The position numbers and the translations under genes are program-made. From a virus, in the IMG/VR virus record IMGVR_UViG_3300045988_095634: 49,092 nt of DNA. One strand, given 5' to 3'. This document shows, piece by piece, positions 3,932-49,092 of the stretch; within the stretch, counting starts at the first letter, position 1; each line of letters starts with the position of its first letter. Below the pieces are notes generated by a model that had not been told where the DNA came from, did no database searches, and saw nothing but the letters and a program-made list of their open reading frames with translations.

Positions 3932-4058
3932 GAGCGACGCGCTCTGCAGGACCATAATCAGCGGAATGTCGAGAGCGTTCGAGGATCCTGCCGTTATGGC
4001 AGACTATCAAAACTGGAAGAAACAGAGACAACAAAGAAAGGAGGCAGCAGCCCTATGA
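3849..4058 (+). CDS. Hypothetical protein
   Basis: Internal ATG of the 3798-4058 ORF, preceded by AGGAAGGAG. Ends 4 nt into the dam-like gene. Confidence 0.5.
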   Translation: MAMKTLKSVGSRTPQNINIELDTLPENESDALCRTIISGMSRAFEDPAVMADYQNWKKQRQQRKEAAAL

Positions 4059-4801
4059 AATACATGGGAAGCAAGGCGAAAGTCGCCCGCTACATCGTGC
4101 CGATCATTCAGAAACAGATCGAGCGCTCCGGCTATGAGACTTATCTAGAGCCATTCTGCGGCGGCTGCAATGTGATCGACAAGATCGAAGCCCCGCAGCG
4201 GATCGCCAGCGATTGCAACAAGTACCTGATCGCCCTCATGCAGCACATTCAGGCAGGCGGCGAGCTCCCGGGCTACATCGAGCGCGAGGAATACGCCAAA
4301 GTCCGAGCCAACCGCGACGACTACCCGGAATGGTACGCAGGCTATGTCGGTTTTGTGGCTTCGTATAATGGCAGATTTTTCGACGGTGGCTACTCTGGCA
4401 AGACTCAGACAACCGGAGGGCTCCGGGACTATCAGGACGAGGGCCGGCGCAACATCGAGGCGCAGCGGGACAAGCTGAAGGACGTCATTTTCTTACATAA
4501 GGACTACCGGGCATGGAACCCGACCGGGTGCGTCATTTACATGGATCCACCCTACGAGAACACAAAGCAGTATAAATCGGTTGAAATTTTCGACCACGCG
4601 GACTTCTGGAGAGTCGCACGGCTCTGGAGCCATGACAACATTGTACTAATCAGCGAGCAGGAAGCTCCTGACGACTTCGTGCCGGTGTGGATCCACAGCG
4701 TAACCCGCACCATGAACCAAAATAAGACGATAGCAGCCACCGAAAAGCTATTCGTTGCGAAGGAGGTGCTCGAGCGTGAGGAAATTGTTGCAGCAGTTTA
4801 A
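4055..4801 (+). CDS. Dam-family (D12 class) N6-adenine DNA methyltransferase
   Basis: N-terminal MKYMGSKAK...EPFCGGCNV SAM motif and catalytic DPPY (YMDPPY). Confidence 0.85.
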   Translation: MKYMGSKAKVARYIVPIIQKQIERSGYETYLEPFCGGCNVIDKIEAPQRIASDCNKYLIALMQHIQAGGELPGYIEREEYAKVRANRDDYPEWYAGYVGFVASYNGRFFDGGYSGKTQTTGGLRDYQDEGRRNIEAQRDKLKDVIFLHKDYRAWNPTGCVIYMDPPYENTKQYKSVEIFDHADFWRVARLWSHDNIVLISEQEAPDDFVPVWIHSVTRTMNQNKTIAATEKLFVAKEVLEREEIVAAV

Positions 4802-5578: not shown

Positions 5579-5857
5579 ATGGCCGAAGAATACAGCCGCA
5601 AGGCGGTTTTTGAGATACTGGGCCAAGAGGTCTCAGACAAAGAAATGCAGCGGGCTGAGTCTTATGCAGACAGAAAGCTCGAGCGAGCCACAGAAATGCA
5701 GCCAGAGGACGCGGCGACGTACCGCTCCGGCTGGTACCGTGTTTTGCTGGTGGCCGATCTGGTGAAACAGCTCGCCTTCCAAGACTTCACGCTCGCCCTC
5801 TGCGAGCTGAGAAACTACGAACCAAAAGGAGGCATACAGACCAATGCAAACACATGA
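5579..5857 (+). CDS. Hypothetical protein
   Basis: ATG at 5579 preceded by AAGGAGG, in frame within the 5537-5857 ORF. Confidence 0.6.
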   Translation: MAEEYSRKAVFEILGQEVSDKEMQRAESYADRKLERATEMQPEDAATYRSGWYRVLLVADLVKQLAFQDFTLALCELRNYEPKGGIQTNANT

Positions 5858-6635
5858 GGACATAAAAAGGGCCAGACGCCCAGAACGTCCAGCCCAAGTG
5901 ACCGCGAAGAAGGAGACGGTGCTCTCGCCTGAGCCCGTCCATAATTTCAAAGATCACAGAGAAATTATAGCACGAAAACGCAGAAAAGCCAATAGGCGCC
6001 GCGAGGTTTTCCTTGCCAGACTGGCAGCAGGCGCCGCTCTGGTGCTCGTTGTGACCGTTACCGTGAGTCTGGTATCTTGCAGCAAGAAAAAAGAACCGGT
6101 AAACGCTCCGGCAGCAGAAACAACAGCGACACCGCAGGAGACTACTCTCATAATTCAGGACGAAACACAGCCAGACGGCTACTACTTCGCATATCTGACA
6201 GAGGACGGAGAACCCCACGCGGTAAATATGGAGGAGCTTGCGAGATCGTGGGCCTCTGAGGCCGGTTTTGAACTCCGGTACGAGCTGACAGACGCCGAGC
6301 GCTACGAGGTGGCCCAGATCGTCACAGCAGAGGCCGAGGGCGAACCGCTTGCAGGTAAAATTGCAATTTGCCAGTGTATCCTGCAGGCATGTGAGGACGA
6401 CGGGATCCGACCGGCAGAGGCAGCAGCCCGCTACTCCTATTCCAAGAAAAGACCGGAGCCGTCAGTGGAGGCAATGCAGGCCGTTCGGTATGTGTTTGAC
6501 TTTGGAATGACAGCAAGCACCGAGCCGATCAAATACTTTTACAATCCCGATCTTGTGGCGAGTAAGTTCCACGAGTCACAGCGCTACATAATGACAATTA
6601 ACAACCACCGCTTCTATGCGGAGAAGGAGGACTAA
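5844..6635 (+). CDS. Membrane-anchored SleB/CwlJ-like cell-wall hydrolase
   Basis: Basic N-terminus, TM segment AAGAALVLVVTVTVSLVSC, and a C-terminal VTAEAEGEPLAGKIAICQCIL segment resembling the Hydrolase_2 (AEARGEP) motif. Confidence 0.55.
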   Translation: MQTHEDIKRARRPERPAQVTAKKETVLSPEPVHNFKDHREIIARKRRKANRRREVFLARLAAGAALVLVVTVTVSLVSCSKKKEPVNAPAAETTATPQETTLIIQDETQPDGYYFAYLTEDGEPHAVNMEELARSWASEAGFELRYELTDAERYEVAQIVTAEAEGEPLAGKIAICQCILQACEDDGIRPAEAAARYSYSKKRPEPSVEAMQAVRYVFDFGMTASTEPIKYFYNPDLVASKFHESQRYIMTINNHRFYAEKED

Positions 6636-7685
6636 ATGCAACCGATAGTAAACGACTTTTTCTGCGGCTGCGGAGGCATGGGCGTCGGGTTCCTTAATGC
6701 TGGCTATAAAATAGCCGGGGCGTGGGACTTTGACAAATATGCGGTGCAAAGCTACGACCACAACGTCGGGCACCATGTAAAGCAGGCAGATATTAAAGAA
6801 ATGACATGGCAAGACGTCCCTTTTGCTCATGTTTGGGCTTTTGGGTTCCCTTGTCAAGATCTGAGCGTTGCCGGTAAGCGAGCCGGGCTACTGCTCAAAT
6901 GCCAAGATTGCGACAGCGATTTTGCTATTGATCCGAGCAATTTCACGGGACAGACAACCTGCCCGAGCTGCGGATCTAAAAACTATAAAGCAGCCAGTCG
7001 CTCCGGGTGCTTCTATGAAATAATGCGCCTGATTGATGAAACCAGAGAACACGCACCGAGCTCACTCCCCGCCGTGCTTGTCGCGGAAAATGTAAAAGGC
7101 TTAACTCCGTATATTCCAGTGCTTGCGGCTGAATTAAAACAGCGCGGATATATCGCCCACGTTAAATTATATAACTCAAAATTTTGGAATGTAGCACAGA
7201 ACCGGGAACGCTACTACATAGCAGCCACCAGAGACGACCTGCAGGACGTTTTGCAAATGCCAGAGCAGAACGAAGATCCTGAAAAGGTTCCCAAACTATC
7301 GCTTTTTCTGGACGATAACGTCCCAGAGAGATTTTACATTCCAAACGAAAAAGCCCAGAAAATTATCGAGCAGGCGCTCAAAAAGCTGGAGGAACTCGGG
7401 AAAGTACATGCAACTATTACGCCAGACCGTATCGAGAAAAGGCAAAACGGGCGGCGATCCAAAGACGACGAGGAGCCAATGTTTACACTTACAGCTCAGG
7501 ATCTCCACGGTGTAATTATCCAAACCGAGGAGGACGACGAAAACGGCATTATTGTCTCTGAGATATGCAACGAGACTGGTCTGCTGGATCCAAACGGCTG
7601 CGGTAAAACCCTCCGAGTTGGCGGGGGGGGGTCATTGACCAAGAAGCACAACTACCAGCACATACTGTTGAGCACATCGGAATAA
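6636..7685 (+). CDS. DNA cytosine-5 methyltransferase, N-terminal portion (frame lost at a G9 run)
   Basis: Motif I FFCGCGGMGVGF, motif IV GFPCQDLSVAG, motif VI ENVKGL. The sequence after the G9 run (7623-7631) continues sensibly only in the -1 frame. Confidence 0.8.
   Translation: MQPIVNDFFCGCGGMGVGFLNAGYKIAGAWDFDKYAVQSYDHNVGHHVKQADIKEMTWQDVPFAHVWAFGFPCQDLSVAGKRAGLLLKCQDCDSDFAIDPSNFTGQTTCPSCGSKNYKAASRSGCFYEIMRLIDETREHAPSSLPAVLVAENVKGLTPYIPVLAAELKQRGYIAHVKLYNSKFWNVAQNRERYYIAATRDDLQDVLQMPEQNEDPEKVPKLSLFLDDNVPERFYIPNEKAQKIIEQALKKLEELGKVHATITPDRIEKRQNGRRSKDDEEPMFTLTAQDLHGVIIQTEEDDENGIIVSEICNETGLLDPNGCGKTLRVGGGGSLTKKHNYQHILLSTSE
7623..7631 (+). repeat. Poly-G (G9) tract inside the C5-methyltransferase
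   Basis: gcGGGGGGGGGtc. The reading frame changes from frame 0 to frame 2 at this run. Confidence 0.95.
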
Positions 7686-7828
7686 CGGTGACGGATTACG
7701 CCACCAATTTGCAGAAATTCACCGATACAGCAAATTGCCTTCAGGCAAGAGACTCGAAAGGCTTCGGGCGTCAAGGCATGACTGCTGTCATTGAAATATC
7801 AAAGGAGGACGAAAATGCCAAAACTTGA
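7631..7828 (+). pseudogene. C5-methyltransferase middle fragment (target-recognition region) in the -1 frame
   Basis: Translates to ...TANCLQARDSKGFGRQGMTAVIEIS..., which is typical C5-MTase variable-region sequence. Not reachable from the upstream frame as written. Confidence 0.6.
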
Positions 7829-7937
7829 AATGATCGGCTTACTGGATATAAAGGGGCAAGACTCCGTTCGGCGAGTGTACGATCCTGACGGTCTGGCCCC
7901 TACCCTTACGACTTGCGGGGGGGGTGTAGACAAGTGA
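7815..7937 (+). pseudogene. C5-methyltransferase fragment with its own RBS and ATG, terminated just after a G8 run
   Basis: AAAGGAGG then ATG. Translates to MPKLEMIGLLDIKGQDSVRRVYDPDGLAPTLTTCGGG (conserved PTLT..GG motif), then a stop 11 nt after the G8 run. Confidence 0.6.
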
Positions 7938-8353
7938 AAATTTTAGATAAAAAACGATACAGAGTCAGAAAGCTAACCCCAACGGAATACGGACGCCTGC
8001 AGGCGTTTCCTATGGAGCATTGGGAGCAGGTAGTCTCAGACTCTCAGGCTTATAAGCAATTCGGCAATGCAGTAACCACAACCGTTGCAACCGGCGTAGC
8101 TGAGTCGATAACGAACTTTTTGAGCCGCGTCGGAATATTAAAGGAGGACACCACAATGGAAGAAATGAACAAAGCAACCAGCGCTCAGGCGCAGACTGAA
8201 AACCCGGCCATAGCCCAGATAACTGCTATTTTGCAGCCTAAAAAGGAAAGACTCACAGAGCTCATGAACGAAGAAAGTCAGCTCAGAACAGAGGTTGAGG
8301 CTCTCGAGCTTGCTATTTCAACAATTCAGAACGGAGGGAAAGAAAATGCCTAA
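7913..8353 (+). CDS. DNA cytosine-5 methyltransferase, C-terminal portion (motifs IX-X)
   Basis: RVRKLTPTEYGRLQAFP and QFGNAV motifs. An in-frame internal RBS and ATG at 8156 could also express a 65-aa coiled-coil tail separately. Confidence 0.75.
   Translation: MRGGCRQVKILDKKRYRVRKLTPTEYGRLQAFPMEHWEQVVSDSQAYKQFGNAVTTTVATGVAESITNFLSRVGILKEDTTMEEMNKATSAQAQTENPAIAQITAILQPKKERLTELMNEESQLRTEVEALELAISTIQNGGKENA
7917..7924 (+). repeat. Poly-G (G8) tract inside the C5-methyltransferase
   Basis: tgcGGGGGGGGtg. A second frame 0 to frame 2 break at a G run. Confidence 0.95.
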
Positions 8354-8975
8354 GTTAATTCAGACAACCACAACAGAGACAGAAACAACATGGAAAGGAC
8401 TCGCTAACCTGATAAAAGGAGGCGGCGGCACATTAAAGATCGGCGACATTATCACAGAGAAAACCCTCGACGGTGAGGAAATGGATCTCGTAGTCGTTGA
8501 CATGGGCCCGGACTGGGCTCGCTTCGAGAGCAAGGACTGCCTGCCGGTGGAAGTAGCCTACAACCAGAACAACAGAAACACCGGCGGCTTCGCAGACTCA
8601 GACGTCAAGCGCTACTTAAACGAGGAAGTTTTCAATAATCTGCCAGAGGATCTTCGCAATGTGATCGCCGAGGTTGAGCGTAAGCAGGAAAACGGCGAGA
8701 GCTCACTCTGCCGCCTCTTTTTACCTACCGAGTCGGAGCTGTTCGGGGACTGCTGCTATTCAGAGGACGACACATACAACCAGATCGAATACTACAAAGA
8801 CCGCCGCAACCGTATCAAGTGCAACAGAAAAGGTGGATCACCTGATTGGCACTGGACCGCTTCTGTCAGGAGTGGCAACTCGACTTATTGCGTGTACGTC
8901 ACCAGCTACGGGCACTCCGGCCACTGGCACGCCGGCGGCGAGCTTTGCGTCCCGGTCTGCTTCGTAATTCAGTAA
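8346..8975 (+). CDS. DGR target protein 2: small non-structural protein with a C-type-lectin/DUF1566-like variable C-terminus
   Basis: GGAGGG ribosome binding site then ATG. The C-terminus WHWTASVRSGNSTYCVYVTSYGHSGHWHAGGELCVPVCFVIQ is paralogous to the tail-fibre C-terminus. Its last 111 bp match the TR with adenine-only mismatches. Confidence 0.85.
   Translation: MPKLIQTTTTETETTWKGLANLIKGGGGTLKIGDIITEKTLDGEEMDLVVVDMGPDWARFESKDCLPVEVAYNQNNRNTGGFADSDVKRYLNEEVFNNLPEDLRNVIAEVERKQENGESSLCRLFLPTESELFGDCCYSEDDTYNQIEYYKDRRNRIKCNRKGGSPDWHWTASVRSGNSTYCVYVTSYGHSGHWHAGGELCVPVCFVIQ
8853..8963 (+). repeat. DGR variable repeat 2 (VR2)
   Basis: 111 bp align without gaps to TR 39946-40056. All 15 mismatches are at TR adenines. 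Confidence 0.9.
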
Positions 8976-8985
8976 ATCATAAATC

Positions 8986-9005
8986 CCGCCGCCTTTGTGC
9001 GGCGG
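8986..9005 (+). other. GC-rich hairpin downstream of VR2 (candidate DGR target-recognition stem-loop)
   Basis: CCGCCGC-ctttgt-GCGGCGG, 23 nt after the VR2 end. No T-run follows. Confidence 0.5.
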
Positions 9006-9024
9006 CATAAGGAGGAGAAACCAC

Positions 9025-9828
9025 ATGCAAGAAGAACAGAAAGAAACCGCAGCGGGCTCCCCGGTTGCCTCATTCCAGACGCGGCGGGACAAACCGATCG
9101 AGGTAATGAGCCTGCAGGAGAAATTCATCGAACTGCGGCGCCAGATCCCGAGGATTGAAAAGGGCCAGCACAGCGAGGAGGTTCCCTATAAGTTTGCAAA
9201 GATTGACGACGTCTGGAGAGCTATCACTCCCACGATGAATGAGCTCGGCGTCAACTTCGACATTATTCAGGAGGAAAACGCCCAAATTAAAACCATGAAC
9301 ACGCAGCACGGCGGCCTTATGTTCCTTTATGAGTCCGATCTGACAATGCGCTGGACCAATGCAGACAACGAGGACGACACCGACGAGGCCCAGACTCATG
9401 CAATCGCATGGAACGACGATCCGGCCAAAGCTAAAGGCAGCGCGTGGACCTATGCTATAAAATATTATCTTTTTGAAAAATTCAGCATTGACATGGGCGA
9501 GACTGATCCAGACATGAAGGGCAAGCCAAGCGCTCAAACAGCCTCACAGCCGGTCAGAAATGCCGCAGGCAACCAACAGAGCCAACAAGGCAATAAAACC
9601 GCTCAGAGCGGTCAGAATGGAGCCGAGAAAAAGCTCACAGCGGCCCAGCTCGACAGAATGTACCGGAAAGCTCAGGACGCCGGGCTCTCCAAAGAGCAGA
9701 CAGACGGCAGGATCAATTATTTATACAGCAAGAAACCAGCCGACATGACTCGGGCAGAGTATGACGACATTTGCAAGCGCATGGACGACACAGCCAGAGA
9801 GCTGAGGAATGGAGGAAATAGACAGTGA
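9025..9828 (+). CDS. ERF-family single-strand annealing recombinase
   Basis: YKFAKIDDVWRAITPTMNELGV and KAKGSAWTYAIKYYLFEKF segments typical of ERF. GGAGGAG ribosome binding site. Sits next to ssb. Confidence 0.75.
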   Translation: MQEEQKETAAGSPVASFQTRRDKPIEVMSLQEKFIELRRQIPRIEKGQHSEEVPYKFAKIDDVWRAITPTMNELGVNFDIIQEENAQIKTMNTQHGGLMFLYESDLTMRWTNADNEDDTDEAQTHAIAWNDDPAKAKGSAWTYAIKYYLFEKFSIDMGETDPDMKGKPSAQTASQPVRNAAGNQQSQQGNKTAQSGQNGAEKKLTAAQLDRMYRKAQDAGLSKEQTDGRINYLYSKKPADMTRAEYDDICKRMDDTARELRNGGNRQ

Positions 9829-10247
9829 ACAAAGTCATTTTAATGGGGAGGCTCACCAGAGATCCCGAAGTACGATACACGCAAGGCAATGAGCCTATGG
9901 CGATAGCCCGCTACACTCTCGCCGTGGACCGCAGAGGCAGAAAAGACGGAGGCGAAGCAACTGCCGACTTTATCCAGTGCGTTGCCTTTAGAAATAACGC
10001 CGAATTTGCTGAGAAATACCTGAGACAAGGCACAAAGATCGCAATAACCGGCAGGATCCAGACGGGAAGCTACACCGACCGTGAGGGCCGCAAGGTATAC
10101 ACTACCGAGGTTGTTGTTGAGGAGGCCGAGTTTGCAGAAAGTAAGAACAAAAACAGCAACCAGCAGGAGCCTCCAACCGGTCCTGCAAGCGGCGACGGTT
10201 TTATGAATATACCGGAGGGCGCAGACGATCAACTCCCTTTTAATTGA
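9825..10247 (+). CDS. ssb: Single-stranded DNA-binding protein
   Basis: MNKVILMGRLTRDPEVRYT OB-fold N-terminus and an acidic DDQLPF C-terminal tip. Confidence 0.92.
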   Translation: MNKVILMGRLTRDPEVRYTQGNEPMAIARYTLAVDRRGRKDGGEATADFIQCVAFRNNAEFAEKYLRQGTKIAITGRIQTGSYTDREGRKVYTTEVVVEEAEFAESKNKNSNQQEPPTGPASGDGFMNIPEGADDQLPFN

Positions 10248-11209: not shown

Positions 11210-12053
11210 CGGCTGGTTTTACAGCAGCGAGGAAAGAGACTGGCCGGAACCACCACCGGAGCCGGTGCCGTGTGAATATTGCGGAAAGCTCCGGTATCAC
11301 AAAGGCAAAGAACTCAGCAACATGGGTGACCGGATCTTCTGGATCCCCACCGCTATTCCTTGCAACTGCCCGGGAGCGGTCGAGGCTAGAGAAAAAGAAC
11401 GGCTCGAACGGGAGCAGGAAGAAAAACGGAAAGCCGAGGACGAAATCAGACGCCGGGTGTCACGTCTCAGATGTGACTCAGGAATGAGGGGCCGCTTTTT
11501 AGAGCGAACCTTCAGCAACTACCTCACCCCGGACGAAAGAACGGCCAAAGCGAAAGAAACAGCCATACGATACGCCCAGAATTTTGACAATATGAGCCAG
11601 AAGAAAAACGGACTTTTCATACTGGGCGACATAGGCGTCGGAAAGACTCACCTCGCTGCTGCTATTGCCAACGACCTGATCCAGAGAGGCCGGCCGGTTA
11701 TTTGCATGACAATGATCGACATGCTGGCAAGGATCAAGGCTACATACGACAAGCGCGAAATCTCAGAGGGCGAGATCCTGAGAGTTTACGAAACGGTCCC
11801 GCTCCTCATTATCGACGACATGGGGAAAGAACCACCGACAGACTGGGGCGTCTCGAAGATCTACGCGATCATAAACGCCCGCTATGAAGGCTATAAGCCT
11901 ACGATTGTAACAAGCAACTACACAGACACCGAGCTGGAGAAACGCCTCACTCCTCAGAATGGGGACGACATGACAGCGAGGGCCACTGTGGACCGGCTGC
12001 GAGAAATGTGCGAGGCACTCGTCATGGAGGGCCAGAGCTGGCGCAGCAGATAA
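11148..12053 (+). CDS. DnaC/IstB-like AAA+ helicase loader
   Basis: Walker A GDIGVGKTHLAAAI and Walker B LLIIDDMGKE. AAGGAGG ribosome binding site before the ATG at 11148. Confidence 0.85.
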   Translation: MAMNHQADHAISSPASQQPSDGWFYSSEERDWPEPPPEPVPCEYCGKLRYHKGKELSNMGDRIFWIPTAIPCNCPGAVEAREKERLEREQEEKRKAEDEIRRRVSRLRCDSGMRGRFLERTFSNYLTPDERTAKAKETAIRYAQNFDNMSQKKNGLFILGDIGVGKTHLAAAIANDLIQRGRPVICMTMIDMLARIKATYDKREISEGEILRVYETVPLLIIDDMGKEPPTDWGVSKIYAIINARYEGYKPTIVTSNYTDTELEKRLTPQNGDDMTARATVDRLREMCEALVMEGQSWRSR

Positions 12054-12064
12054 GGAGGCAGACA

Positions 12065-12628
12065 ATGAGTGCAACAAACAGAGGAAGCACCAGAAAACCG
12101 CACGACTTCTACCCTACACCGATCCCGACGATCGAGACATTTCTCGACGTTTTCCCTCTGAGGGGGGGGATCGAGGTGCTGGAACCGGGAGCAGGTAGCG
12201 GCAACATAATCAAGACACTACAAAAATACGGCGATTTTTCGATCGACGCGGTGGAGATCAGACCGGAGGAGGCACAACACTTGCAGGATCTCGGTGTCAA
12301 TGTGATTATTGACGACTTCCTGAGCATGGACCTCGGGAAAAAGTACGATCTTATCATCGGCAACCCGCCATTTAATCAGGCGATCGAATTTGTTGAGAAA
12401 AGTCTCGGGCTACTTAAACCGGGCGGCAGGCTCATTTTCCTGCTCCGCACCGCGTTCATGGAAAGCGACCAGCGTTTTGAGTTCTGGCAGCAGGAAGATC
12501 ACCAGCTCGCCGGACTCTACACCCTACATAAGCGCCCGAGCTTTACCGGACATGGAACAGACGCCACGAGCTACTCATGGTTCGTATGGCAGCCCGGCAG
12601 CAGTCGCCAGACAATAAAAATTATTTAA
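12065..12628 (+). CDS. N6-adenine DNA methyltransferase (NPPF type)
   Basis: FYPTP, SAM motif VLEPGAGSGN and catalytic IIGNPPF. AAGGAGG ribosome binding site before the ATG at 12065. Confidence 0.8.
   Translation: MSATNRGSTRKPHDFYPTPIPTIETFLDVFPLRGGIEVLEPGAGSGNIIKTLQKYGDFSIDAVEIRPEEAQHLQDLGVNVIIDDFLSMDLGKKYDLIIGNPPFNQAIEFVEKSLGLLKPGGRLIFLLRTAFMESDQRFEFWQQEDHQLAGLYTLHKRPSFTGHGTDATSYSWFVWQPGSSRQTIKII
12162..12169 (+). repeat. Poly-G (G8) tract near the 5' end of the NPPF methyltransferase (in frame as written)
   Basis: ctgaGGGGGGGGatc, encoding RGG just upstream of the SAM-binding motif. Confidence 0.95.
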
Positions 12629-17205: not shown

Positions 17206-18648
17206 GTGGCGAAATCAAAGAAAACGCTCGAAATCACCCAGACAAAGACGAAGGCCAACCGTCAGGAGATACAGATCAACGACATGGACTACACCACCAG
17301 CGCTGAGCCGAAAGCGTTCGCAGACGGCCGGCCGGTTTTTTGCGCACATGACAAAATTGTGCCGATAAAGGAACTTAGAGAAAACCCTCTAAACCCAAAT
17401 AAGCACCCGGACGATCAGATCAGAGCCCTCGCTGCTATCATCAAGGCAACCGGCTGGAGGCAGCCGATCACCGTGAGCACCCGATCGGGCCTGATCGTAA
17501 AGGGTCACGGCAGACTCGCGGCGGCAAAGTATGGAAAATTCAAAGAGGCTCCAGTCGACTATCAGAATTATGCCAGCGAGGAGGAAGAACTGGCCGACCT
17601 CATGGCAGACAACCGGATCGCGGAGCTTGCGGAAATCGACAGCGTGAAACTGGCCGAGGCTTTTGAGGCGGTAGACACCGGGGCGATCCCGTTTGAAATG
17701 ACCGGCTACGAGGAGTCATTTTATCAGGAACTTGCGACAGCTCTATGCGAAGCGGATCACGACAAGGAGGAGGCAGACGACGACACCGTACTCCCACCAC
17801 CGGAGGAACCAGTCAGCAAGCTGGGGGACGTGTGGATCCTCGGCCGCCATAGACTCATGTGCGGAAACTCCACCAACACAAAGGACCGCGAGGAACTGCT
17901 GGCGGGAGCAGAACCGGAGCTCATGCTCACAGATCCCCCGTATTGCAGCGGAGGCCACCAAGAGAGCGGAAAGTCTACCGGAAGTATCGGAACCGTAAGA
18001 AAAGGCCAGACAGACGCGCCGAAGATCGCAAACGACATACTCAGCACCCGCGGTTATATTAAATTATTAACCGCAGCCTTCGAGGGTATCACTCCTCTAT
18101 TTGCTTATGTGTTCACCGACTGGCGCATGTGGATCTATTTGTATGACATAATCGAGAAATCGGGCTTCGGAGTCCGTTCGATGATCGTATGGGATAAAGA
18201 GACACCCGGCATGGGTGTCGGCTGGAGAAGCCAGCACGAGCTCTGTCTGTTCGGCAGCAGAGGCAAGGCGAAATTTGACGGCCACAAAGGCTACGGCAAT
18301 GTTTTGAGGTGCAGCAGGTCCGGGAATGAGTTACACCCGACACAGAAGCCCGTCGAGCTTATGGAAATGATACTCGACAACATGGATTTTGTAAAAACGG
18401 TTTACGATCCGTTCGGAGGCAGCGGGACCACTCTCGCGGCAGCAGAAAAGACCGGCCACACCGCCTATCTCATGGAATTAACGCCGGGCTATACCGACGT
18501 AATTGTAAAGCGGTATTTCAGGATCACCGGCAACAAGGACCAGATCCAGCTCATAAGAGACGGAGCCCCAGCAGATCCGGCAGTATACGCCGAGATTTTC
18601 GACGATGTAGGCATAAGCTCAGAATACAAGGAAGGAGAATATGAATAA
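17206..18648 (+). CDS. ParB-like nuclease domain fused to an N6A/N4C DNA methyltransferase
   Basis: N-terminal ParB-N pattern (NPLNPNKH...GHGRLAAA). Catalytic LTDPPY and C-terminal SAM motif DPFGGSGTT, the beta-class order. Confidence 0.85.
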   Translation: MAKSKKTLEITQTKTKANRQEIQINDMDYTTSAEPKAFADGRPVFCAHDKIVPIKELRENPLNPNKHPDDQIRALAAIIKATGWRQPITVSTRSGLIVKGHGRLAAAKYGKFKEAPVDYQNYASEEEELADLMADNRIAELAEIDSVKLAEAFEAVDTGAIPFEMTGYEESFYQELATALCEADHDKEEADDDTVLPPPEEPVSKLGDVWILGRHRLMCGNSTNTKDREELLAGAEPELMLTDPPYCSGGHQESGKSTGSIGTVRKGQTDAPKIANDILSTRGYIKLLTAAFEGITPLFAYVFTDWRMWIYLYDIIEKSGFGVRSMIVWDKETPGMGVGWRSQHELCLFGSRGKAKFDGHKGYGNVLRCSRSGNELHPTQKPVELMEMILDNMDFVKTVYDPFGGSGTTLAAAEKTGHTAYLMELTPGYTDVIVKRYFRITGNKDQIQLIRDGAPADPAVYAEIFDDVGISSEYKEGEYE

Positions 18649-19200
18649 ATGGCAAAACAGAAAAAACCAAGCATACCGCCAGAGATCAAAAGCTACATAG
18701 ACGAGGTGGCGAAAAAAACCGCGGCAGCAGTCTCAGACGCATACAAGCCGTTGCAGCAGCCGCAGAACGCAAAGGCAGCGTTTAAAAACACCGAGGCTCG
18801 TCTCTATGCCCTCCCGGTGCTGAAGGTCAAGATTAAGGACGACGAGGAAAAGATCGAGGAGCTGAGAACCTACGGAACCCCAGCGAGAAGCAAGTCGATC
18901 ACCAGATTTTCAAAGAGTAGCACCCGCATGGATCCAGAGGAGGCTCTCGAGGCCATTATCAAAGACAAGCAGGCCTGCATTGAGTCGGATCAGCACGAAG
19001 TCGATGTTCTCGAGGAGGCTCTCGAAATCATCAAACCAGATCCGTATTATGAGTCAGTAAGCGGCCGCTACTTCGAGGGACTTGACAACGAGACCATTGC
19101 TGAGTCACTGGGCTGCGACGCGACAACCGTCTGGAGGAACCGCCAGCGCCTTATTAAGAGCCTCTCCGTCCGTTTATATGGCACGGCCGCCATTGATTAG
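18649..19200 (+). CDS. Late-gene transcriptional regulator (sigma region-4-like / RinA-ArpU-like)
   Basis: C-terminal HTH YFEGLDNETIAESLGCDATTVWRNRQRLIKSL. Last gene before the late promoter and packaging genes. Confidence 0.6.
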   Translation: MAKQKKPSIPPEIKSYIDEVAKKTAAAVSDAYKPLQQPQNAKAAFKNTEARLYALPVLKVKIKDDEEKIEELRTYGTPARSKSITRFSKSSTRMDPEEALEAIIKDKQACIESDQHEVDVLEEALEIIKPDPYYESVSGRYFEGLDNETIAESLGCDATTVWRNRQRLIKSLSVRLYGTAAID

Positions 19201-38131: not shown

Positions 38132-39427
38132 ATGGCAGATTTTAACAATGCAGTAATGACAAACGGTGGCGCCGCCTTGCTGGCAGCCACAACCGCCGGA
38201 ACCGCAAAAATTAAGTTCACCAAGCTGGTGACTGGATCCGGCACCTATTCAGACTCGGAGAAAACCAGAGCCAGCCTGCAGGCCCACTCTACTCTCAAAG
38301 CGCAGAAACAAGAGATCCCATTCTCTAAAATTGAAATGGCGACCGATACCTGCGTAAAATTGACGGCGCTCGTCTCAAATGCTGAGCTTTCCGCTGGCTA
38401 TTATGTGAATGAGATCGGCATTTATGCGGTTGATGAATTACACCCGGCCGCTGCTCCAGTCCTCTACTCGATCGCGATCGCGAACGTGGCCGACTATTTG
38501 CCGCCGTACAACGGTTTGACACCTTCGACCATTACGCAGGAATACTTTGCGACCGTCGACAATGCTCTGGAGGTTACGATCCAGACCAAGACCGGAGCCG
38601 TCGCTCTGGCTGAGGATCTCGAAGCTACAAACGAGGAGCTTGCGAGAGCTATGTCCGACAACGATCGCCTCTATGACGGCAGAGACCTGACTACTGTCTT
38701 TGCGCTGGAGATTGCAAAGTATTCAGACGCATGGGCGTGGATTAAGGCAAGGATCAAAGCCCACAATTTTGCCGGTATTCATGTAGCCGACTATATTCCT
38801 ATCACAATGAACGGCCAGACGGTGAAAATGCAGGTTGCTGGTATCGACACATATTACAGAACCACCGATCAGCAGCTCAGCCACCACATTGATTTTATTA
38901 GTAAAGACTGTTTTAATCAGACAGTAAAATGGAATGAGGCCAATAATAACAACGGAAACGCTGCAAATAACTCACCGTACATGATAAGCAACCTGCACAC
39001 ATTCCTCACTACTACCCTTTACGGCTACCTTCCGGCAGCGGTCAAGGCTGTAATCAGCAACAAGCGCGCCCTCATGGAATACAGATACAGCGCAAGCGGC
39101 GCACTCACTGACGGCACGGGCTGGGGCTGGCAGGATCTCGGTCCTCTCTGGGTGCCTCTCGAGTATGAAATCTTCGGTTCAACTATCTGGGGGACAAAAG
39201 GCTGGAGTCAGGGACAGGGCGTACAGTACCCGATCTTTGCTAATAGCTTTTTGAACCGTATCAAGGGCGCCGGAAACGGCGGCGGCCGCTGCAACTGGTG
39301 GACCGCTTCTGTCAGGAGTGGCAGCTCGACTATTTGCGTGTACGTCGACACCCACGGGTACTCCATCACCTGGAACGCCAGCGACGAGCTTTGCGTCCCG
39401 GTCTGCTTCCGAATTGACGAGGCGTAA
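38132..39427 (+). CDS. Tail fibre / receptor-binding protein, DGR target 1
   Basis: N-terminal tail-collar-like region (NAVMTNGGAALLA...KFTKLVTGSG). C-terminus NWWTASVRSGSSTICVYVDTHGYSITWNASDELCVPVCFRIDEA contains VR1. Confidence 0.88.
   Translation: MADFNNAVMTNGGAALLAATTAGTAKIKFTKLVTGSGTYSDSEKTRASLQAHSTLKAQKQEIPFSKIEMATDTCVKLTALVSNAELSAGYYVNEIGIYAVDELHPAAAPVLYSIAIANVADYLPPYNGLTPSTITQEYFATVDNALEVTIQTKTGAVALAEDLEATNEELARAMSDNDRLYDGRDLTTVFALEIAKYSDAWAWIKARIKAHNFAGIHVADYIPITMNGQTVKMQVAGIDTYYRTTDQQLSHHIDFISKDCFNQTVKWNEANNNNGNAANNSPYMISNLHTFLTTTLYGYLPAAVKAVISNKRALMEYRYSASGALTDGTGWGWQDLGPLWVPLEYEIFGSTIWGTKGWSQGQGVQYPIFANSFLNRIKGAGNGGGRCNWWTASVRSGSSTICVYVDTHGYSITWNASDELCVPVCFRIDEA
39282..39410 (+). 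repeat. DGR variable repeat 1 (VR1)
   Basis: 129 bp align without gaps to TR 39929-40057. All 12 mismatches are at TR adenines. Confidence 0.92.
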
Positions 39428-39448: not shown

Positions 39449-39469
39449 CCGGCTACCTCGTGTAGCCGG
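39449..39469 (+). other. GC-rich hairpin downstream of VR1 (candidate DGR target-recognition stem-loop)
   Basis: CCGGCTAC-ctcgt-GTAGCCGG, 39 nt after the VR1 end. No T-run follows. Confidence 0.5.
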
Positions 39470-39486: not shown

Positions 39487-39897
39487 ATGAGTAACGTATA
39501 CACCAGAAACCGTAAAAAGACGCCGTTCGACGTCCTTGCGAACGCCGAGAAACTTCAAGATCTTGTAACGCTCTATGTTATGAATGAGAGGTATGTGCCT
39601 AAAAAGTGGCGCTTTATGATCGGTCAGGATCTTATCAAGAAAATTGACGAGCTGAACGACAACATAATCGCCGCGAACAGTATCTATGCCATGAATGAGC
39701 AGGATCTCGCGAGCCGTAAGGCATACGCCCAAAAGGCGATCGCGAACGGCTACCAATTACAGAGAAAACTCTCCCGTCTTATCAGGTGCGTGCCTTCGGC
39801 CACGGCCGCAAGCCTCGAAGAAATCACGAACTTATTGAGTCAAGAGATCGACGACCTGAAAGGCTGGAGGAAAAACGACAAAATAAGAGCCAGATAA
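39487..39897 (+). CDS. avd: DGR accessory variability determinant (Avd-like four-helix-bundle protein)
   Basis: 136-aa basic protein between VR and TR. The VPKKWRFMIGQDLIKKIDELNDNIIAANSIY pattern resembles Avd and 23S-IVS-type proteins. Confidence 0.75.
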   Translation: MSNVYTRNRKKTPFDVLANAEKLQDLVTLYVMNERYVPKKWRFMIGQDLIKKIDELNDNIIAANSIYAMNEQDLASRKAYAQKAIANGYQLQRKLSRLIRCVPSATAASLEEITNLLSQEIDDLKGWRKNDKIRAR

Positions 39898-39928: not shown

Positions 39929-40057
39929 GCGGCCGCTGCAACTGGTGGACCGCTTCTGTCAGGAGTGGCAACTCGACTAATTGCGTGAACGTCAACAACA
40001 ACGGGAACTCCAACAACTGGAACGCCAGCAACGAGCTTTACGTCCCGGTCTGATTCC
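39929..40057 (+). repeat. DGR template repeat (TR)
   Basis: Non-coding copy of the VR, rich in AAC. It has 11 AAY codons in the VR frame and an in-frame TGA, and lies between avd and the RT. Confidence 0.92.
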
Positions 40058-40287
40058 ACCTATATGCCAGACAGAGTAGAAAAATCGAAATCAGTGCCAG
40101 AGTGGAAGGAAGGAGCAAATAACCCTCGCCGTCAAGGCGTAAATAAGAGCCCAGACGCTACCGGGTGGACGCTGCTTGCATGGCGCGGAGTTTGTGCGAG
40201 TTCTCCGCGTTTCATACCCGTTGTACTATGCGGCTAATTAAACGCATGACAGCCGTGCTGGGTAATAACAAAGGAATGAGTTAAATT

Positions 40288-41427
40288 GTGACAAGCGAAG
40301 AAAGACGAGAACAACGATACCAGAGACGAAAAGCCGCAAGGCTGAAAAAGAGGCAGGAAACAATCGGGAAATATGATGATTTTGAGCGCGTGGCCTCACT
40401 GAACTCTCTGTATGAAGCAGCAAGGGAAGCCTCGAAGGGCGTCGACTGGAAAGCCAGCGTCCAGAGGTACAACTCTTTGCTGCTTTTTAATATATCCAAA
40501 ACACGCGCCGAGCTGCTTGCTGGAAAAGATATACGCCGCGGCTTTATCTGTTTTGATATATGCGAACGCGGCAAGCTGAGGCACATCAAAAGCGTGCATT
40601 TTTCCGAGAGAGTTGTGCAAAAATCATTTTGCACCAACATCATATACCCCACTTTCACCCGCTCCCTGATTTATGACAACGGGGCGAGCCAGCAAGGAAA
40701 AGGCACCCAGTTCGCGACCAACAGACTGACGACTCACTTGCGGAGGCATTTCAGGAAATACGGACGCGAAGGCGGCATACTTCTGATTGACTTCTCGGAC
40801 TACTTCGGGAATGTGGCGCATGAGCCACTTTTTGAGATATACCGGCAGATCTTCACGGATCCACGCGTCATAGCTCTGGGAATGAGCTTTATTTCTGCCT
40901 TCGGCGATAAAGGCCTCGGGCTGGGAAGTGAAACGAGCCAGATTAACGCCGTAATGCTTCCAAACCGCGCGGACCATTACGCGAAGGAAGTGCTCAGGAT
41001 CCGTGGCTATGGCAGATATATGGACGACACCTATCTGCTGCACCATAGCATTGCATACCTCGAGGAATGTCTCGAAAAACTCCGGGCGATATACTCGGAA
41101 TATGGCATAGTTATCAATGAGAAGAAAACAAAAATTGTAGACCTCAAACACGGGTTTACATTTTTGAAAACTCATTTTTATATCACAGAAACCGGCCGGA
41201 TCATCAAAAAGCCGTGCCGTGACAGTATCACCAGAGAACGCCGAAAGCTGAAAAAGCAGGCGGATCTCGTAGCTTCTGGCGTCCTGACCTTCGACGAGGT
41301 TCGGCACTCCTACGCCTCATGGCGTGGCAGCATGTCGCACCGGGACGCATACAGAACCGTGCAAAGCATGGACCGCCTATTTAATAGGCTGTTTATAGAT
41401 CAATGGAAAGGAGGACCACAACCATGA
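40288..41427 (+). CDS. DGR reverse transcriptase
   Basis: GTG start. RT motifs SQQGKGTQFA, LLIDFSDYFGNV and YGRYMDDTYLL (YxDD). About 230 nt downstream of the TR. Confidence 0.9.
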   Translation: MTSEERREQRYQRRKAARLKKRQETIGKYDDFERVASLNSLYEAAREASKGVDWKASVQRYNSLLLFNISKTRAELLAGKDIRRGFICFDICERGKLRHIKSVHFSERVVQKSFCTNIIYPTFTRSLIYDNGASQQGKGTQFATNRLTTHLRRHFRKYGREGGILLIDFSDYFGNVAHEPLFEIYRQIFTDPRVIALGMSFISAFGDKGLGLGSETSQINAVMLPNRADHYAKEVLRIRGYGRYMDDTYLLHHSIAYLEECLEKLRAIYSEYGIVINEKKTKIVDLKHGFTFLKTHFYITETGRIIKKPCRDSITRERRKLKKQADLVASGVLTFDEVRHSYASWRGSMSHRDAYRTVQSMDRLFNRLFIDQWKGGPQP

Positions 41428-44949: not shown

Positions 44950-45027
44950 CTATTTCCGCGTGAAGTTTACCACCACGGCGAACACTTTCTTGAAAAAGTA
45001 CACCGGGTTCGGCTTCGCGCCATTGAG

Positions 45028-45112
45028 TGCGGAAGATGGGACTTGAACCCACACGATTGCAATAATCACAAGATCCTTAGTCTTGCTCGTCTGCCAGTTC
45101 CGACACTTCCGC
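45028..45112 (-). tRNA. tRNA-Leu (type II, long variable arm), anticodon read as AAG
   Basis: Minus strand GCGGAAG-TG-...-CAAGA-CTAAGGA-TCTTG-(16-nt variable arm)-GTGGG-TTCAAGT-CCCAT-CTTCCGC-A. 85 nt, no encoded CCA. Confidence 0.85.
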
Positions 45113-45209
45113 ATGTATTTTGTTTTCGCCGCTTGTCTCACGCGACTCGTATATAATATCAGATTGTTTTCAAAAATGCAAGCACTTTTTTCAAAAAAAT
45201 CATATTTTT

Positions 45210-45818
45210 TTACAGACTCTTTTCATAGCACAAAAACGGCTGCCCAAACAGGCTGCATTCACCCACTGTATCAAATCCAAACACTGCATACGAGCGCAGA
45301 GCCTTCACATTGAGCTTGTTGACTAAAAAATGCACACTTTTGTATCCTCTCCTTGCGAGTTCTTCCATCCCAAATACCAGCATTTGTCTCGCAATTTTCT
45401 GATTCTGAAAATCTGGATGAACCGCAAGTCTTGAAAGCTCAGCCCCGGGTGCCAGTTTATGGCTCCAGCAATCAAGCCTCTCCACCTGTGGATCATCATC
45501 AATTGAAATCGCTGCGATAATTCTGTCCTCTTTGCTTCCGGCATCAGCATTAATCTCCTGCCCATCAATCATTACAAACAAAGATTCTCTACCAAGATCA
45601 AACTCAATCTCCTTCATTCCCGGATAAGAATCGTCCCATGGACAAAACTCCCTGCCTAGCTGTATCTTATACAATTTTAAAATTTCTTCTTTATTTTCTT
45701 CTGTAGCTGCTACTATTTTTCTCATTCTGTTTCTCATTTCCTTTATTTTCCCATGTGCATCGTTCTCTTCTGTTACACGATTATCTTTATCATAGACTAT
45801 CTTTGCAACATAGCCCAT
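45210..45818 (-). CDS. GNAT-family N-acetyltransferase
   Basis: Acetyl-CoA motif A: LSRLAVHPDFQNQKIARQMLVFGMEELARRGY. 202 aa. Low-GC region. Confidence 0.8.
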   Translation of the reverse strand: MGYVAKIVYDKDNRVTEENDAHGKIKEMRNRMRKIVAATEENKEEILKLYKIQLGREFCPWDDSYPGMKEIEFDLGRESLFVMIDGQEINADAGSKEDRIIAAISIDDDPQVERLDCWSHKLAPGAELSRLAVHPDFQNQKIARQMLVFGMEELARRGYKSVHFLVNKLNVKALRSYAVFGFDTVGECSLFGQPFLCYEKSL

Positions 45819-46127
45819 CGTTTCTTACTTCCGCAACTAAAAAGTCCATTACAATACACATAACATCTCTGTATATTGTAACGGACTTTTTTCAAACCCA
45901 GACTTGGTGCAAGCACCATTTCTGATAAAAACCTCGAAAGTTTTTGTTCTATGTGCATATATTACCTAATTTCATTCACAAAGTCAATATATTTTCTGCT
46001 AAATTTTCAAATACCATTTATGTTTTGGATTATTATTTTGCCCCTTAATATATTGTATTACCCCACTAATGAATCTATACGCTTCAGCAATAACCTGATT
46101 TTTTTAACTGTTTTGAGATTTATAGTG

Positions 46128-46452
46128 ATTTCAGCTACTTTTTGGGCTGGGTTTGGGAGCTGTTTTGGGGATTTCTGCAGTTTCAGCTACTTTTTCTCGG
46201 CTTTTTTCCAGCTTTTTGGCTGAGTTCGGGAGCTGTTTTGGGGATTTCTGCAGTTTCAGCTACTTTTTCTCGGCTTTTTTCGGCTTTTTGGCTGAGTTTG
46301 GGGAGCTGTTTTGGGGATTTCTGCAGTTTCAGCTACTTTTTGCCGGTTTTTTTCCGGCTTTTGGCTTGGTTTGGAGAGCTGTTTTGGGGATTTCTGCAGT
46401 TTCAGCTACTTTTTGCCGGTTTTTCTCCGGCTTTTGGGCTGAGTTTGGGTTG
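46128..46452. repeat. Tandem repeat array, about 4.5 units of 63-83 bp
   Basis: Core AGCTGTTTTGGGGATTTCTGCAGTTTCAGCTAC at 46158, 46221, 46304 and 46377, plus a partial copy at 46128. The inter-core segments are also mutually similar and differ mainly in T-run lengths. Confidence 0.85.
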
Positions 46453-46848
46453 TTCCTTCTCCACCTCGTCGGTACGAAGTCTGAACTGCCTCTTTTAGCA
46501 TTCTGGCCTGCGCATCTTCTGTGATTCGCTCATGTTTCTCGAGTCCAATAATTCGATCCAACAGGTAATACCAATATTGACTGGACATAATTCCTGAAGA
46601 GGAGGAGTGTTACCTCATTTCTTTGTAAAATGTTCTTCGACTGTTTTGTCTAGGGCTTTCTGCTTCTTTCTGCAATCTGGCAAGCTTCTCCGACATCGTT
46701 TCTGCCTTGTCCATTGAAGTATCTGTGTCGCCATATTCCCGGTGACAAGAAAGATATATCTTATAAAATTTCCGAACCGGATGATGAAAACAGAGTTTAA
46801 AGCACGACCGTTTTACCTTTCAAAGTTTCGATTTTGGAGCTCATTTCC

Positions 46849-48579: not shown

Positions 48580-48653
48580 AAGCTTGTCCTCTCCTTCTGA
48601 TCTAATATGCAATTTTGAACGAAATCCGTATAATTTAGCTTACCCCATTTTAA

Positions 48654-49036
48654 TGCGGAAGATGGAGTGCGGAAGATGTGTTGCAAGACGTCCGGAGGAC
48701 GTCTGTTCTGCGCCGACCGAAGCGGAGCGGAGACCTTGGACCCATGGGGCGCCTGCCACGCAACAACCGAAGCCATGCGGAAGATGGGTTGCAAGACGTC
48801 CGGGGGACGTCTGTTCTGCAACGACCGAAGCGGAGCGGAGACCGAGTGAGGTCCGGGGGACCTCATGCCACGAGCCGACCGAGCCGGAGGCGAGACCTTG
48901 AACCATAGGCACCTGCCCCACAACAATCGGAGTCTTGCGGAAGATGGGGCGCAAGACATCCGGGGGATGTCTGCTCTGCGCCGACCGGAGCGGAGCGGAG
49001 ACCTTGGACCCATGGGGACAAGGTCCGCTTCCGCTT
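48654..49036. repeat. GC-rich repeat array (3 units of about 110-160 bp) with internal hairpins
   Basis: TGCGGAAGATG(G/T)G at 48654, 48668, 48776 and 48936. Each unit carries a GACGTCCGG-r-GGACGTC hairpin and a CGGAGCGGAGACC(T)TGGACCCATGGGG-like segment. Confidence 0.85.
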
Positions 49037-49037
49037 C

Positions 49038-49092
49038 TAAAATCAAAAAGGGCTAAGCCCTAAGGCTTAACCCTTTTTAATTTTATAATGCG
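49038..49092. repeat. 55-bp terminal overlap, identical to 1-55
   Basis: Exact duplicate of the first 55 bases of the window. Confidence 0.9.

What the first reader, a model, noticed from the sequence alone, without database searches (positions are those of the whole stretch)
8346..8975. Second, remote DGR target in a small non-structural early-region gene
The 3' end of a 209-aa ORF carries a second variable repeat (VR2, 8853-8963). The ORF sits between the C5-methyltransferase and the ERF recombinase, about 31 kb from the TR. VR2 aligns over 111 bp to TR 39946-40056 with 15 mismatches, all at TR adenines, and its substitutions differ from those in VR1.

The protein has no signal peptide or TM segment that I can see. 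It shares only the C-terminal lectin-like scaffold (LFLPTESELFG...WHWTASVRSG...ELCVPVCF) with the tail fibre.

Its position suggests it is expressed with the replication/anti-restriction genes rather than with virion genes. A hypervariable, probably cytoplasmic or non-virion binding protein made early by a phage is not the standard receptor-binding role. It could bind variable host factors, for example defence proteins or superinfection targets. That functional idea is pure inference.
Basis: partly seen in the sequence, partly recalled or inferred. Interest (0 to 1): 0.88.

Follow-up and report, generated by a model that had tools for sequence, protein, structure and literature searches.

The report
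Second DGR target in early gene
A Roseburia prophage uses one mutagenic retroelement to diversify its tail fibre and also a small lectin-like protein encoded among its early DNA-modification and recombination genes; this is real and active, but it was already published for the near-identical phage Shimadzu, and the protein's function is still unknown.

Summary
VR2 (8853-8963) aligns without gaps to TR 39946-40056. There are 15 mismatches, all at TR adenines (chance about 1e-10), and the adenines sit at codon positions 1 and 2.

The window is an integrated relative of Roseburia phage Shimadzu (about 98% identical). The ORF is Shimadzu orf43. Cornuault et al. (bioRxiv 10.1101/575076) already described VR2 in orf43 and showed read-level diversification. 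[quoted passage not shown] The finding is therefore a rediscovery.

What I add:
- VR2 is hypervariable across 110 homologs, while the scaffold is under purifying selection (dN/dS 0.13-0.30).
- The gene always sits just upstream of ERF-SSB in relatives.
- It belongs to a large family of small stand-alone DUF6273 proteins without hydrophobic segments.
- In every one of about 13 lineages whose neighbours I examined, family members lie among replication, DNA-modification or lysogeny genes, never among structural genes. I confirmed the TR-VR pairing in seven lineages, counting this one.

Early expression and a non-virion role are inferred from position, not shown. A counter-defence role remains speculative.

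The parts
8346..8975 (+). Small DGR target gene (209 aa), ortholog of Shimadzu orf43; stand-alone DUF6273 protein
   Evidence: ORF. Pfam DUF6273 scores 45.5 bits against a cut-off of 23.5. It is 91% identical in protein to Shimadzu orf43. Scaffold dN/dS is 0.13-0.30. No hydrophobic segment.
8853..8963 (+). VR2, the variable repeat
   Evidence: 111 bp against the TR with 15 mismatches, all at TR adenines. Against Shimadzu it differs at 18 positions, all templated by TR adenines, while the TR itself is identical. Entropy is 2.96 bits at the 11 TR-Asn codon columns and about 0.35 bits elsewhere across 110 homologs.
8986..9005 (.). GC-rich hairpin (7-bp stem, 6-nt loop) 22 nt after VR2, in the gap before ERF
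   Evidence: DNA fold -9.5 kcal/mol, z -1.78. There is no T-run on the + strand; the scan scored it as terminator-like only on the - strand. A comparable hairpin follows all six VRs examined in three phages. A role in DGR target recognition is inferred from what I recall of the BPP-1 system.
38132..39427 (+). Tail-fibre gene, the adjacent DGR target (431 aa)
   Evidence: The DUF6273 hit (27.6 bits) clears its 23.5-bit cut-off. The Phage_tail_fib N-terminal hit (21.4 bits) falls just short of its 23-bit cut-off. The tail-fibre assignment rests mainly on PHROG tail-fibre families, E 3.5e-37.
39299..39409 (+). VR1
   Evidence: 12 mismatches to the TR, all at adenines. Homology extends upstream to about 39282.
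39449..39469 (.). GC-rich hairpin about 39 nt after VR1
   Evidence: z -2.87.
39487..39897 (+). Avd accessory protein
   Evidence: PHROG 3206 'Avd protein of DGR', E 2.7e-7. Annotated as Avd in Shimadzu.
39946..40056 (+). Template repeat (TR); homology with VR1 runs from 39929 to 40057
   Evidence: Identical to the Shimadzu TR.
40062..40285 (+). RT-2 RNA motif (Rfam RF03077) between TR and RT, probably the structured 3' part of the DGR template RNA
   Evidence: 144.9 bits against a gathering score of 40, E 3.8e-34. The role is inferred.
40288..41427 (+). DGR reverse transcriptase
   Evidence: Pfam RVT_1. PHROG 1423, E 3.6e-71.
6636..8353 (+). C5 cytosine methyltransferase, split over three reading frames; its stop codon overlaps the start of the target gene
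   Evidence: PF00145 matches both 6636-7685 and 7913-8353. The same split is seen in a relative whose target protein is only 72% identical (L002).
8995..9828 (+). ERF single-strand annealing protein directly downstream, followed by SSB at 9825-10247
   Evidence: PF04404. The same order is seen in L002-L005.

Best explanation
VR2 is a working second homing site of the prophage's single DGR.

Diversification mechanism (inferred from the known DGR mechanism):
- The TR transcript, with its RT-2-type structured 3' region, is copied by the RT with Avd.
- Adenines are misread during copying.
- The cDNA replaces either VR1 in the tail fibre or VR2, 31 kb away.
- VR2 offers the needed 111-bp homology, a GC-rich 3' boundary and a downstream hairpin.

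The target gene:
- It is the ortholog of Shimadzu orf43.
- It encodes a stand-alone DUF6273 binding module, reported by others to be C-type-lectin-like.
- About 11 surface positions are randomised.

Inferred steps, not shown:
- The gene is read from the long rightward early operon together with methyltransferases, ERF and SSB.
- The protein stays in the infected cell rather than joining the virion.
- It binds a variable ligand there. The most plausible role is in the phage-host or phage-phage arms race, such as counter-defence or exclusion.
For: DGR target:
- Adenine-only mismatches.
- Codon-position bias of the TR adenines.
- Complete cassette: Avd, TR, RT-2 RNA and RT.
- VR2 differs from Shimadzu's at 18 adenine-templated positions, although the TR is identical.
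- Entropy peaks exactly at the TR-Asn codon columns in 110 homologs.
- A hairpin follows all six VRs examined.
- Published read-level diversification of both VRs in Shimadzu virions and mouse viromes.

Functional protein:
- Scaffold dN/dS is 0.13-0.30.
- The Toutatis counterpart is reported as a core gene present in 98.8% of phages.

Early, non-virion:
- The start codon overlaps the methyltransferase stop codon.
- The promoter/terminator scan found no strong promoter-like site and no convincing + strand terminator between the early promoter-like site at 2773 and the gene; the few + strand hits in between are weak.
- All large ORFs from there to the ECF-like sigma factor at 18649 are on the + strand.
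- The position directly upstream of ERF-SSB is invariant in relatives.
- The same kind of small target lies inside replication or modification modules in Dulem virus 34, Acutalibacter phage Fontainebleau and FP_Toutatis, each with a verified TR-VR pair.
- It does so as well in about eight IMG/VR subfamilies. Neighbours there are Rha, ParB_N, PAPS_reduct, SSB, G39P, a DUF2800 nuclease, DNA polymerase A, C5 methyltransferase, Rep and, in two cases, an integrase or serine recombinase. None are structural genes. Three of these subfamilies also have a TR within the locus.
- One family member is the first early gene next to a Mu-type transposase.
- None of 116 small representatives has a hydrophobic segment, whereas several of the largest relatives, including all five above 2,000 aa, have hydrophobic N-termini.
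- One relative carries an N-terminal AbrB DNA-binding domain.
- There is no tail-attachment domain.
- VR2 alleles did not sweep in mice while VR1 alleles did.
Against: - No expression or proteomics data exist for this protein (one search found none in the Shimadzu paper).
- Gene position does not prove timing or exclude incorporation into particles.
[quoted passage not shown] Published opinion for analogous small targets favours receptor binding.
- There were no matches to defence-system models. No library of anti-defence proteins was available.
- The structural model is of only moderate confidence, especially across the VR.
Confidence: 0.55

Rival explanations
1. The small protein is an accessory receptor-binding or adhesion protein. 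It would end up on the virion, or bind the same surfaces as the tail fibre, despite being encoded far from the structural genes. The DGR would tune two adhesins at once.
For: - It has the same DUF6273 scaffold and the same TR as the tail fibre.
- DUF6273 domains are otherwise found in tail fibres and secreted surface proteins.
- This is the interpretation offered in the literature for Toutatis and for the nd4/nd12 second targets.
Against: - It has no N-terminal tail-collar or other attachment domain.
- It lies among replication, modification or lysogeny genes in all ~13 lineages whose neighbours were examined, never next to structural genes.
- VR2 showed no allele sweep during infection-driven selection in mice, while VR1 did.
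Confidence: 0.22
2. The protein is made inside the cell but acts outside after lysis. As a soluble lectin-like factor it would coat host receptors, debris, mucus or immunoglobulin.
For: - It has no signal peptide, yet it belongs to a domain family with extracellular ligands, including an IgA protease domain.
- Lysis would release it.
Against: - Nothing in the sequence points to this role.
- Consistent placement in the early operon next to DNA-modification genes is not explained by it.
- Relatives fused to an AbrB DNA-binding domain, or placed first in a Mu-like early operon, suggest an intracellular setting.
Confidence: 0.13
3. VR2 is a bystander. It would be a duplicated lectin module that still carries the homing signals and is diversified passively, with little or no function for the phage.
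For: - VR2 alleles behaved almost neutrally in gnotobiotic mice, and the authors judged the gene less essential.
- In some Toutatis-like phages the DGR is lost.
Against: - The scaffold is under purifying selection, with dN/dS 0.13-0.30.
- The reading frame is intact in 110 of 120 listed homologs of matching length.
- The family is conserved at 27-46% identity across many phage lineages and in the same kind of genomic position.
- The Toutatis counterpart is reported as a core gene in 98.8% of phages.
Confidence: 0.07

Closest known systems
Roseburia phage Shimadzu orf43 / VR2 (Cornuault et al., bioRxiv 10.1101/575076; LR596903.1)
   Same: - The same gene in the same place.
- The window is about 98% identical to Shimadzu across the whole prophage.
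- The TR is identical.
- Both VRs were shown experimentally to be diversified in Shimadzu.
   Different: - This copy is the integrated prophage form of a different isolate.
- Its VR2 differs at 18 adenine-templated positions and its VR1 at 18 positions, 17 of them adenine-templated.
Second, small DUF6273 targets of other gut phage DGRs: FP_Toutatis gp24, Faecalibacterium phages Lelie and CP11, nd4/nd12 target 2, and the four prophage species in Nature 2025 (PMC12629997)
   Same: - One TR serves a large structural target and a small single-domain DUF6273 protein with the VR near its C-terminus.
- Proximity to DNA methyltransferases has been noted in print.
   Different: - Only 20-34% identical to the window protein.
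- In Toutatis about 39 residues follow the VR.
- For Lelie, CP11 and nd4/nd12, I did not check the genome positions.
Bordetella phage BPP-1 Mtd and Treponema TvpA (C-type-lectin-fold DGR targets)
   Same: - C-terminal VR with AAY-rich template codons.
- Adenine-specific mutagenesis.
- A downstream hairpin.
- Others report a C-lectin-like fold for DUF6273.
   Different: - Mtd is a trimeric tail-fibre tip protein encoded beside the RT, whereas this protein is a small stand-alone module in the early region.
- My model gave no significant Foldseek or sequence match to either structure.
N-terminal DUF6273 domain of the Thomasclavelia ramosa IgA protease (PDB 9qa6)
   Same: It is the only solved structure that matches. 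By fold the probability is 0.92 and TM-score 0.53. By profile the E-value is 0.0012.
   Different: It is part of a secreted, sortase-anchored 137-kDa protease and is not a DGR target. The paper I read does not assign it a function.

Membership tests
DGR variable repeat / target gene | TR-VR pair whose differences fall almost only at TR adenines | tested here: met
   15 of 15 mismatches are at adenines over 111 bp, P about 1e-10.
DGR variable repeat / target gene | A DGR-type reverse transcriptase with an accessory gene and the TR in the same element | tested here: met
   RVT_1 and PHROG 1423 RT, PHROG Avd, and the RT-2 RNA between TR and RT.
DGR variable repeat / target gene | VR in frame at the 3' end of an ORF, with template adenines at codon positions 1 and 2 | tested here: met
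   29 of 30 TR adenines are at positions 1 or 2 in the VR2 frame. The VR ends 12 nt before the stop codon.
DGR variable repeat / target gene | Cis signals for homing: a GC-rich 3' boundary (IMH) and a downstream hairpin | tested here: inconclusive
   A hairpin lies at 8986-9005, with weak statistics (z -1.78); a counterpart follows all six VRs examined. The GC-rich boundary GCGTCCCGGTCTGC is shared by VR1 and VR2, but the two differences from the TR there are at adenines. An IMH therefore cannot be told apart from ordinary mutagenesis plus selection.
DGR variable repeat / target gene | Actual diversification | tested here: met
   Across genomes. At read level it was not testable here, but it is reported for Shimadzu.
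Pfam DUF6273 (PF19789) | Score above the curated gathering threshold | tested here: met
   45.5 bits against 23.5, covering residues 70-208.
C-type-lectin / FGE-like fold of DGR targets (Mtd, TvpA) | Structural match to solved C-lectin-fold DGR targets | tested here: inconclusive
Phage tail fibre / virion receptor-binding protein | Tail-attachment domain and a position in the structural module | tested here: not met
   Only DUF6273 and PHROG 21980 (unknown function) match. The tail fibre, by contrast, matches PHROG tail-fibre families strongly and the Phage_tail_fib domain just below its cut-off. The gene sits between the methyltransferase and ERF.
Phage tail fibre / virion receptor-binding protein | Presence in purified particles | not testable with these tools
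   No proteomics was found in the Shimadzu paper.
Known defence or counter-defence protein families | Match to a curated model | tested here: not met
   No PADLOC or NCBIfam hit for this protein or for five relatives. No anti-defence library was available.

The most novel reading that the evidence does not exclude
The small stand-alone DUF6273 proteins encoded in phage early regions could be an intracellular, DGR-programmed repertoire of binders. Temperate gut phages would use them to neutralise or sense variable host immunity proteins or competing phages. That would be a phage-side counterpart of the DGR-diversified antigen sensors proposed for bacteria.
Probability: 0.2. Interest if true: 0.85.

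Novelty: already known. Interest (0 to 1): 0.38.

Why it matters
Nearly all that is understood about phage DGRs concerns receptor-binding proteins on the particle. This protein is diversified by the same template, yet it is encoded and probably expressed with the DNA-modification and recombination genes in many gut phage lineages. That points to a second use of targeted hypermutation that nobody has characterised.

Shimadzu is cultivable and its DGR is active. The question can therefore be tested directly, even though the observation itself is not new.

Tried and rejected
Searches that gave little:
- Two of the three large protein searches returned mostly the same Shimadzu-like clusters and added only four diverse sequences. 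This limited the depth of the alignment for structure prediction.
- The first AF2 model was poor, with pLDDT 62. The second reached 67.7.
- Foldseek against the PDB did not recover Mtd or TvpA.
- Sequence and profile searches of the PDB gave only the IgA protease domain.
- A locus search with the broad alignment failed for lack of a conserved stretch. A narrower alignment worked.

Readings I considered and dropped:
- I rejected reading the 8986-9005 hairpin as an ordinary terminator, because no T-run follows it on the + strand.
- I rejected treating the two shared VR/TR differences near the 3' end as proof of an IMH. Both are at adenines, and one removes a stop codon.
- I considered a link with the early-region cell-wall hydrolase-like genes seen in Shimadzu, Dulem virus 34 and Toutatis. 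I did not pursue it, because it is absent from the other lineages.
- The roughly 35-residue N-terminal extension motif of the longer family members matched no Pfam family.

Full report
**1. The observation**

Window 8853-8963 aligns without gaps to 39946-40056, with 96 of 111 matches. All 15 mismatches sit at adenines of the template copy. That copy holds 30 adenines, so the chance of this pattern is about 1e-10.

The tail-fibre copy, VR1 (39299-39409), has 12 mismatches, also all at adenines. It differs from VR2 at 15 positions. In the VR2 frame, 29 of the 30 template adenines are at codon positions 1 or 2. The template reads as an Asn-rich peptide with an internal stop, as expected for a non-coding TR.

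The cassette is complete:
- Avd at 39487-39897.
- The TR.
- An Rfam RT-2 RNA at 40062-40285, scoring 144.9 bits.
- A reverse transcriptase at 40288-41427.

The 209-aa ORF starts at ATG 8346 behind a GGAGGG site. Its start overlaps the stop codon of the upstream C5-methyltransferase fragment. ERF and SSB follow it.

**2. Identity of the element**

Window 52-45031 is about 98% identical to Roseburia phage Shimadzu (LR596903.1), in the integrated permutation and next to a tRNA-Leu. The ORF is Shimadzu orf43.

Prior literature:
- Cornuault et al. (bioRxiv 10.1101/575076) reported that 'two VR could be detected in Shimadzu', with the second in orf43 of unknown function.
  - About 2% of virion reads at both VRs carried 10-15 DGR-type changes.
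  - All five ultravirulent isolates were mutated at both VRs.
  - In mouse viromes VR1 alleles swept, while VR2 stayed highly diverse. The authors concluded that the VR2 gene is less essential for multiplication.
- Other papers describe second, small DUF6273 targets in Faecalibacterium phages and gut viromes.
- Wu et al. noted that many phage DGRs have a non-adjacent target within the same prophage.

Both the observation and the gist of the interpretation are therefore in print.

**3. Evidence that the site is active and the protein functional**

- Between this prophage and Shimadzu the TR is identical.
- VR2 differs at 18 positions, all adenine-templated. Only 18 of the other 519 bases of the gene differ.
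- Across 110 homologs of 205-212 aa, column entropy is 2.96 bits at the 11 template-Asn codons and about 0.35 bits elsewhere.
- The non-VR part has dN/dS of 0.13-0.30 in three comparisons.
- A GC-rich hairpin follows VR2 at 8986-9005 and VR1 at 39449-39469.
- Hairpins in the same position follow all four VRs examined in two unrelated phages, two of them with GAAA loops.
- From my recollection of the BPP-1 system this resembles the target-recognition hairpin. That link is an inference.

**4. Genomic setting**

Everything from the promoter-like site at 2773 (next to the HTH repressor) up to an ECF-like sigma factor at 18649-19200 is on the + strand. The scan found no strong promoter-like site and no convincing + strand terminator before the gene; the few + strand hits in between are weak. 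This stretch holds:
- four DNA methyltransferases;
- an exonuclease;
- a membrane-anchored SleB-like hydrolase;
- ERF and SSB;
- replication proteins;
- RecU.

In relatives whose target protein is only 72-78% identical, the gene is always directly upstream of ERF-SSB. This holds even where the C5 methyltransferase is absent.

**5. A wider family**

An exhaustive search found 1,283 representatives. Many are 180-300 aa and match over almost the whole protein, not only the Pfam domain.

Hydrophobicity:
- None of 116 small representatives has a hydrophobic 19-residue window.
- Several of the largest relatives, including all five above 2,000 aa, have hydrophobic N-termini.

Some small members carry extra N-terminal parts:
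- a roughly 70-residue extension with a shared motif of about 35 residues;
- in one case, an AbrB-type DNA-binding domain.

Three annotated phages unrelated to Shimadzu show the same design, with adenine-specific TR-VR pairs that I verified:

| Phage | Small target | Neighbours |
|---|---|---|
| Dulem virus 34 | 221 aa | beside an adenine methyltransferase |
| Acutalibacter phage Fontainebleau | 189 aa | between DNA polymerase I and a helicase |
| FP_Toutatis | gp24 | among methyltransferases and replication genes |

Seventy-one IMG/VR loci fall into about eight subfamilies, each with VR-type variation.
- Their neighbours are Rha, ParB_N, PAPS_reduct, SSB, a G39P loader, a DUF2800 nuclease, DNA polymerase A, C5 methyltransferase and Rep.
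- In two cases the neighbour is an integrase or serine recombinase.
- None are structural genes.
- Four of these loci, from three subfamilies, include the TR.
- One family member is the first gene after the repressor, next to a Mu-type transposase.

**6. Fold**

- The better AF2 model has pLDDT 67.7 and pTM 0.71, with low confidence across the VR.
- It matches other phage DUF6273 models.
- Among solved structures it matches only the N-terminal DUF6273 domain of the T. ramosa IgA protease, with probability 0.92 and TM-score 0.53.
- I could not confirm the published C-lectin assignment myself.

**7. Interpretation**

Shown: a functional remote DGR target in a conserved gene of the early module.

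Inferred: early co-expression, an intracellular location and a binding role.

The adhesin reading cannot be excluded, because DUF6273 is an extracellular module elsewhere. It explains neither the invariant placement outside the structural genes nor the lack of VR2 selection in mice. A counter-defence role is only guilt by association. There were no matches to defence models.

**8. Verdict**

The finding is already known, but the biological question behind it is open and can be tested.

Noticed in passing
window 6636-8353: The C5 cytosine methyltransferase is broken into three reading frames (6636-7685, 7791-7937, 7913-8353). The same split occurs in Shimadzu and in a relative whose target protein is only 72% identical (L002). 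It is therefore not a sequencing error. It could be a conserved pseudogene, a split enzyme or a recoding site. No Rfam intron was found there.
   Followed up: partly
window 40062-40285: The Rfam RT-2 RNA motif (RF03077, 144.9 bits) exactly fills the gap between the end of the TR and the RT start. It is probably the structured 3' part of the DGR template RNA.
   Followed up: partly
window 45027-45112 and 52-45031: A tRNA-Leu (anticodon AAG) lies at the right prophage end. Homology to Shimadzu stops at 45031, inside the tRNA, so this is the attachment site. Bases 45032-49092 are host DNA.
   Followed up: partly
window 5844-6635: The early region encodes a membrane-anchored protein with a hydrophobic segment near residue 60 and a weak SleB/cell-wall-hydrolase match. 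In relatives that lack the C5 methyltransferase it directly precedes the small DGR target. Dulem virus 34 and FP_Toutatis also have a lytic-transglycosylase-like or 3D-domain gene a few genes upstream of their small target.
   Followed up: partly
L011 5945-6850 (protein P0282): A 301-aa family member is the first gene after a divergent HTH repressor and lies directly upstream of a Mu-type transposase, in the place usually taken by a Ner/Cro-like regulator.
   Followed up: no
protein P0140 (search of protein representatives): A 266-aa relative has an N-terminal AbrB/MazE-type DNA-binding domain fused to the small DUF6273 module. It scores 28.8 bits against a TIGR01439 cut-off of 28.3. Its genomic context could not be looked up.
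   Followed up: partly
L010 (FP_Toutatis NC_047915) 49048-49200: The RefSeq record annotates gp80 as a 'DUF6273 domain-containing protein'. This short ORF is the DGR template repeat itself (TR 49076-49179), so the annotation is an artefact.
   Followed up: yes
proteins P0001, P0086, P0288: Some database homologs are odd. P0001 (332 aa) fuses the methyltransferase C-terminus to the target. P0086 carries an insertion inside the VR that matches the N-terminus of the neighbouring ERF. These are probably assembly or gene-calling artefacts around the hypervariable region.
   Followed up: no
window 4055-4801, 6636-8353, 12008-12628, 17206-18648: The early region carries four DNA methyltransferase genes: Dam-like D12, C5, Eco57I-like and N6/N4. 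This is a heavy investment in anti-restriction.
   Followed up: no
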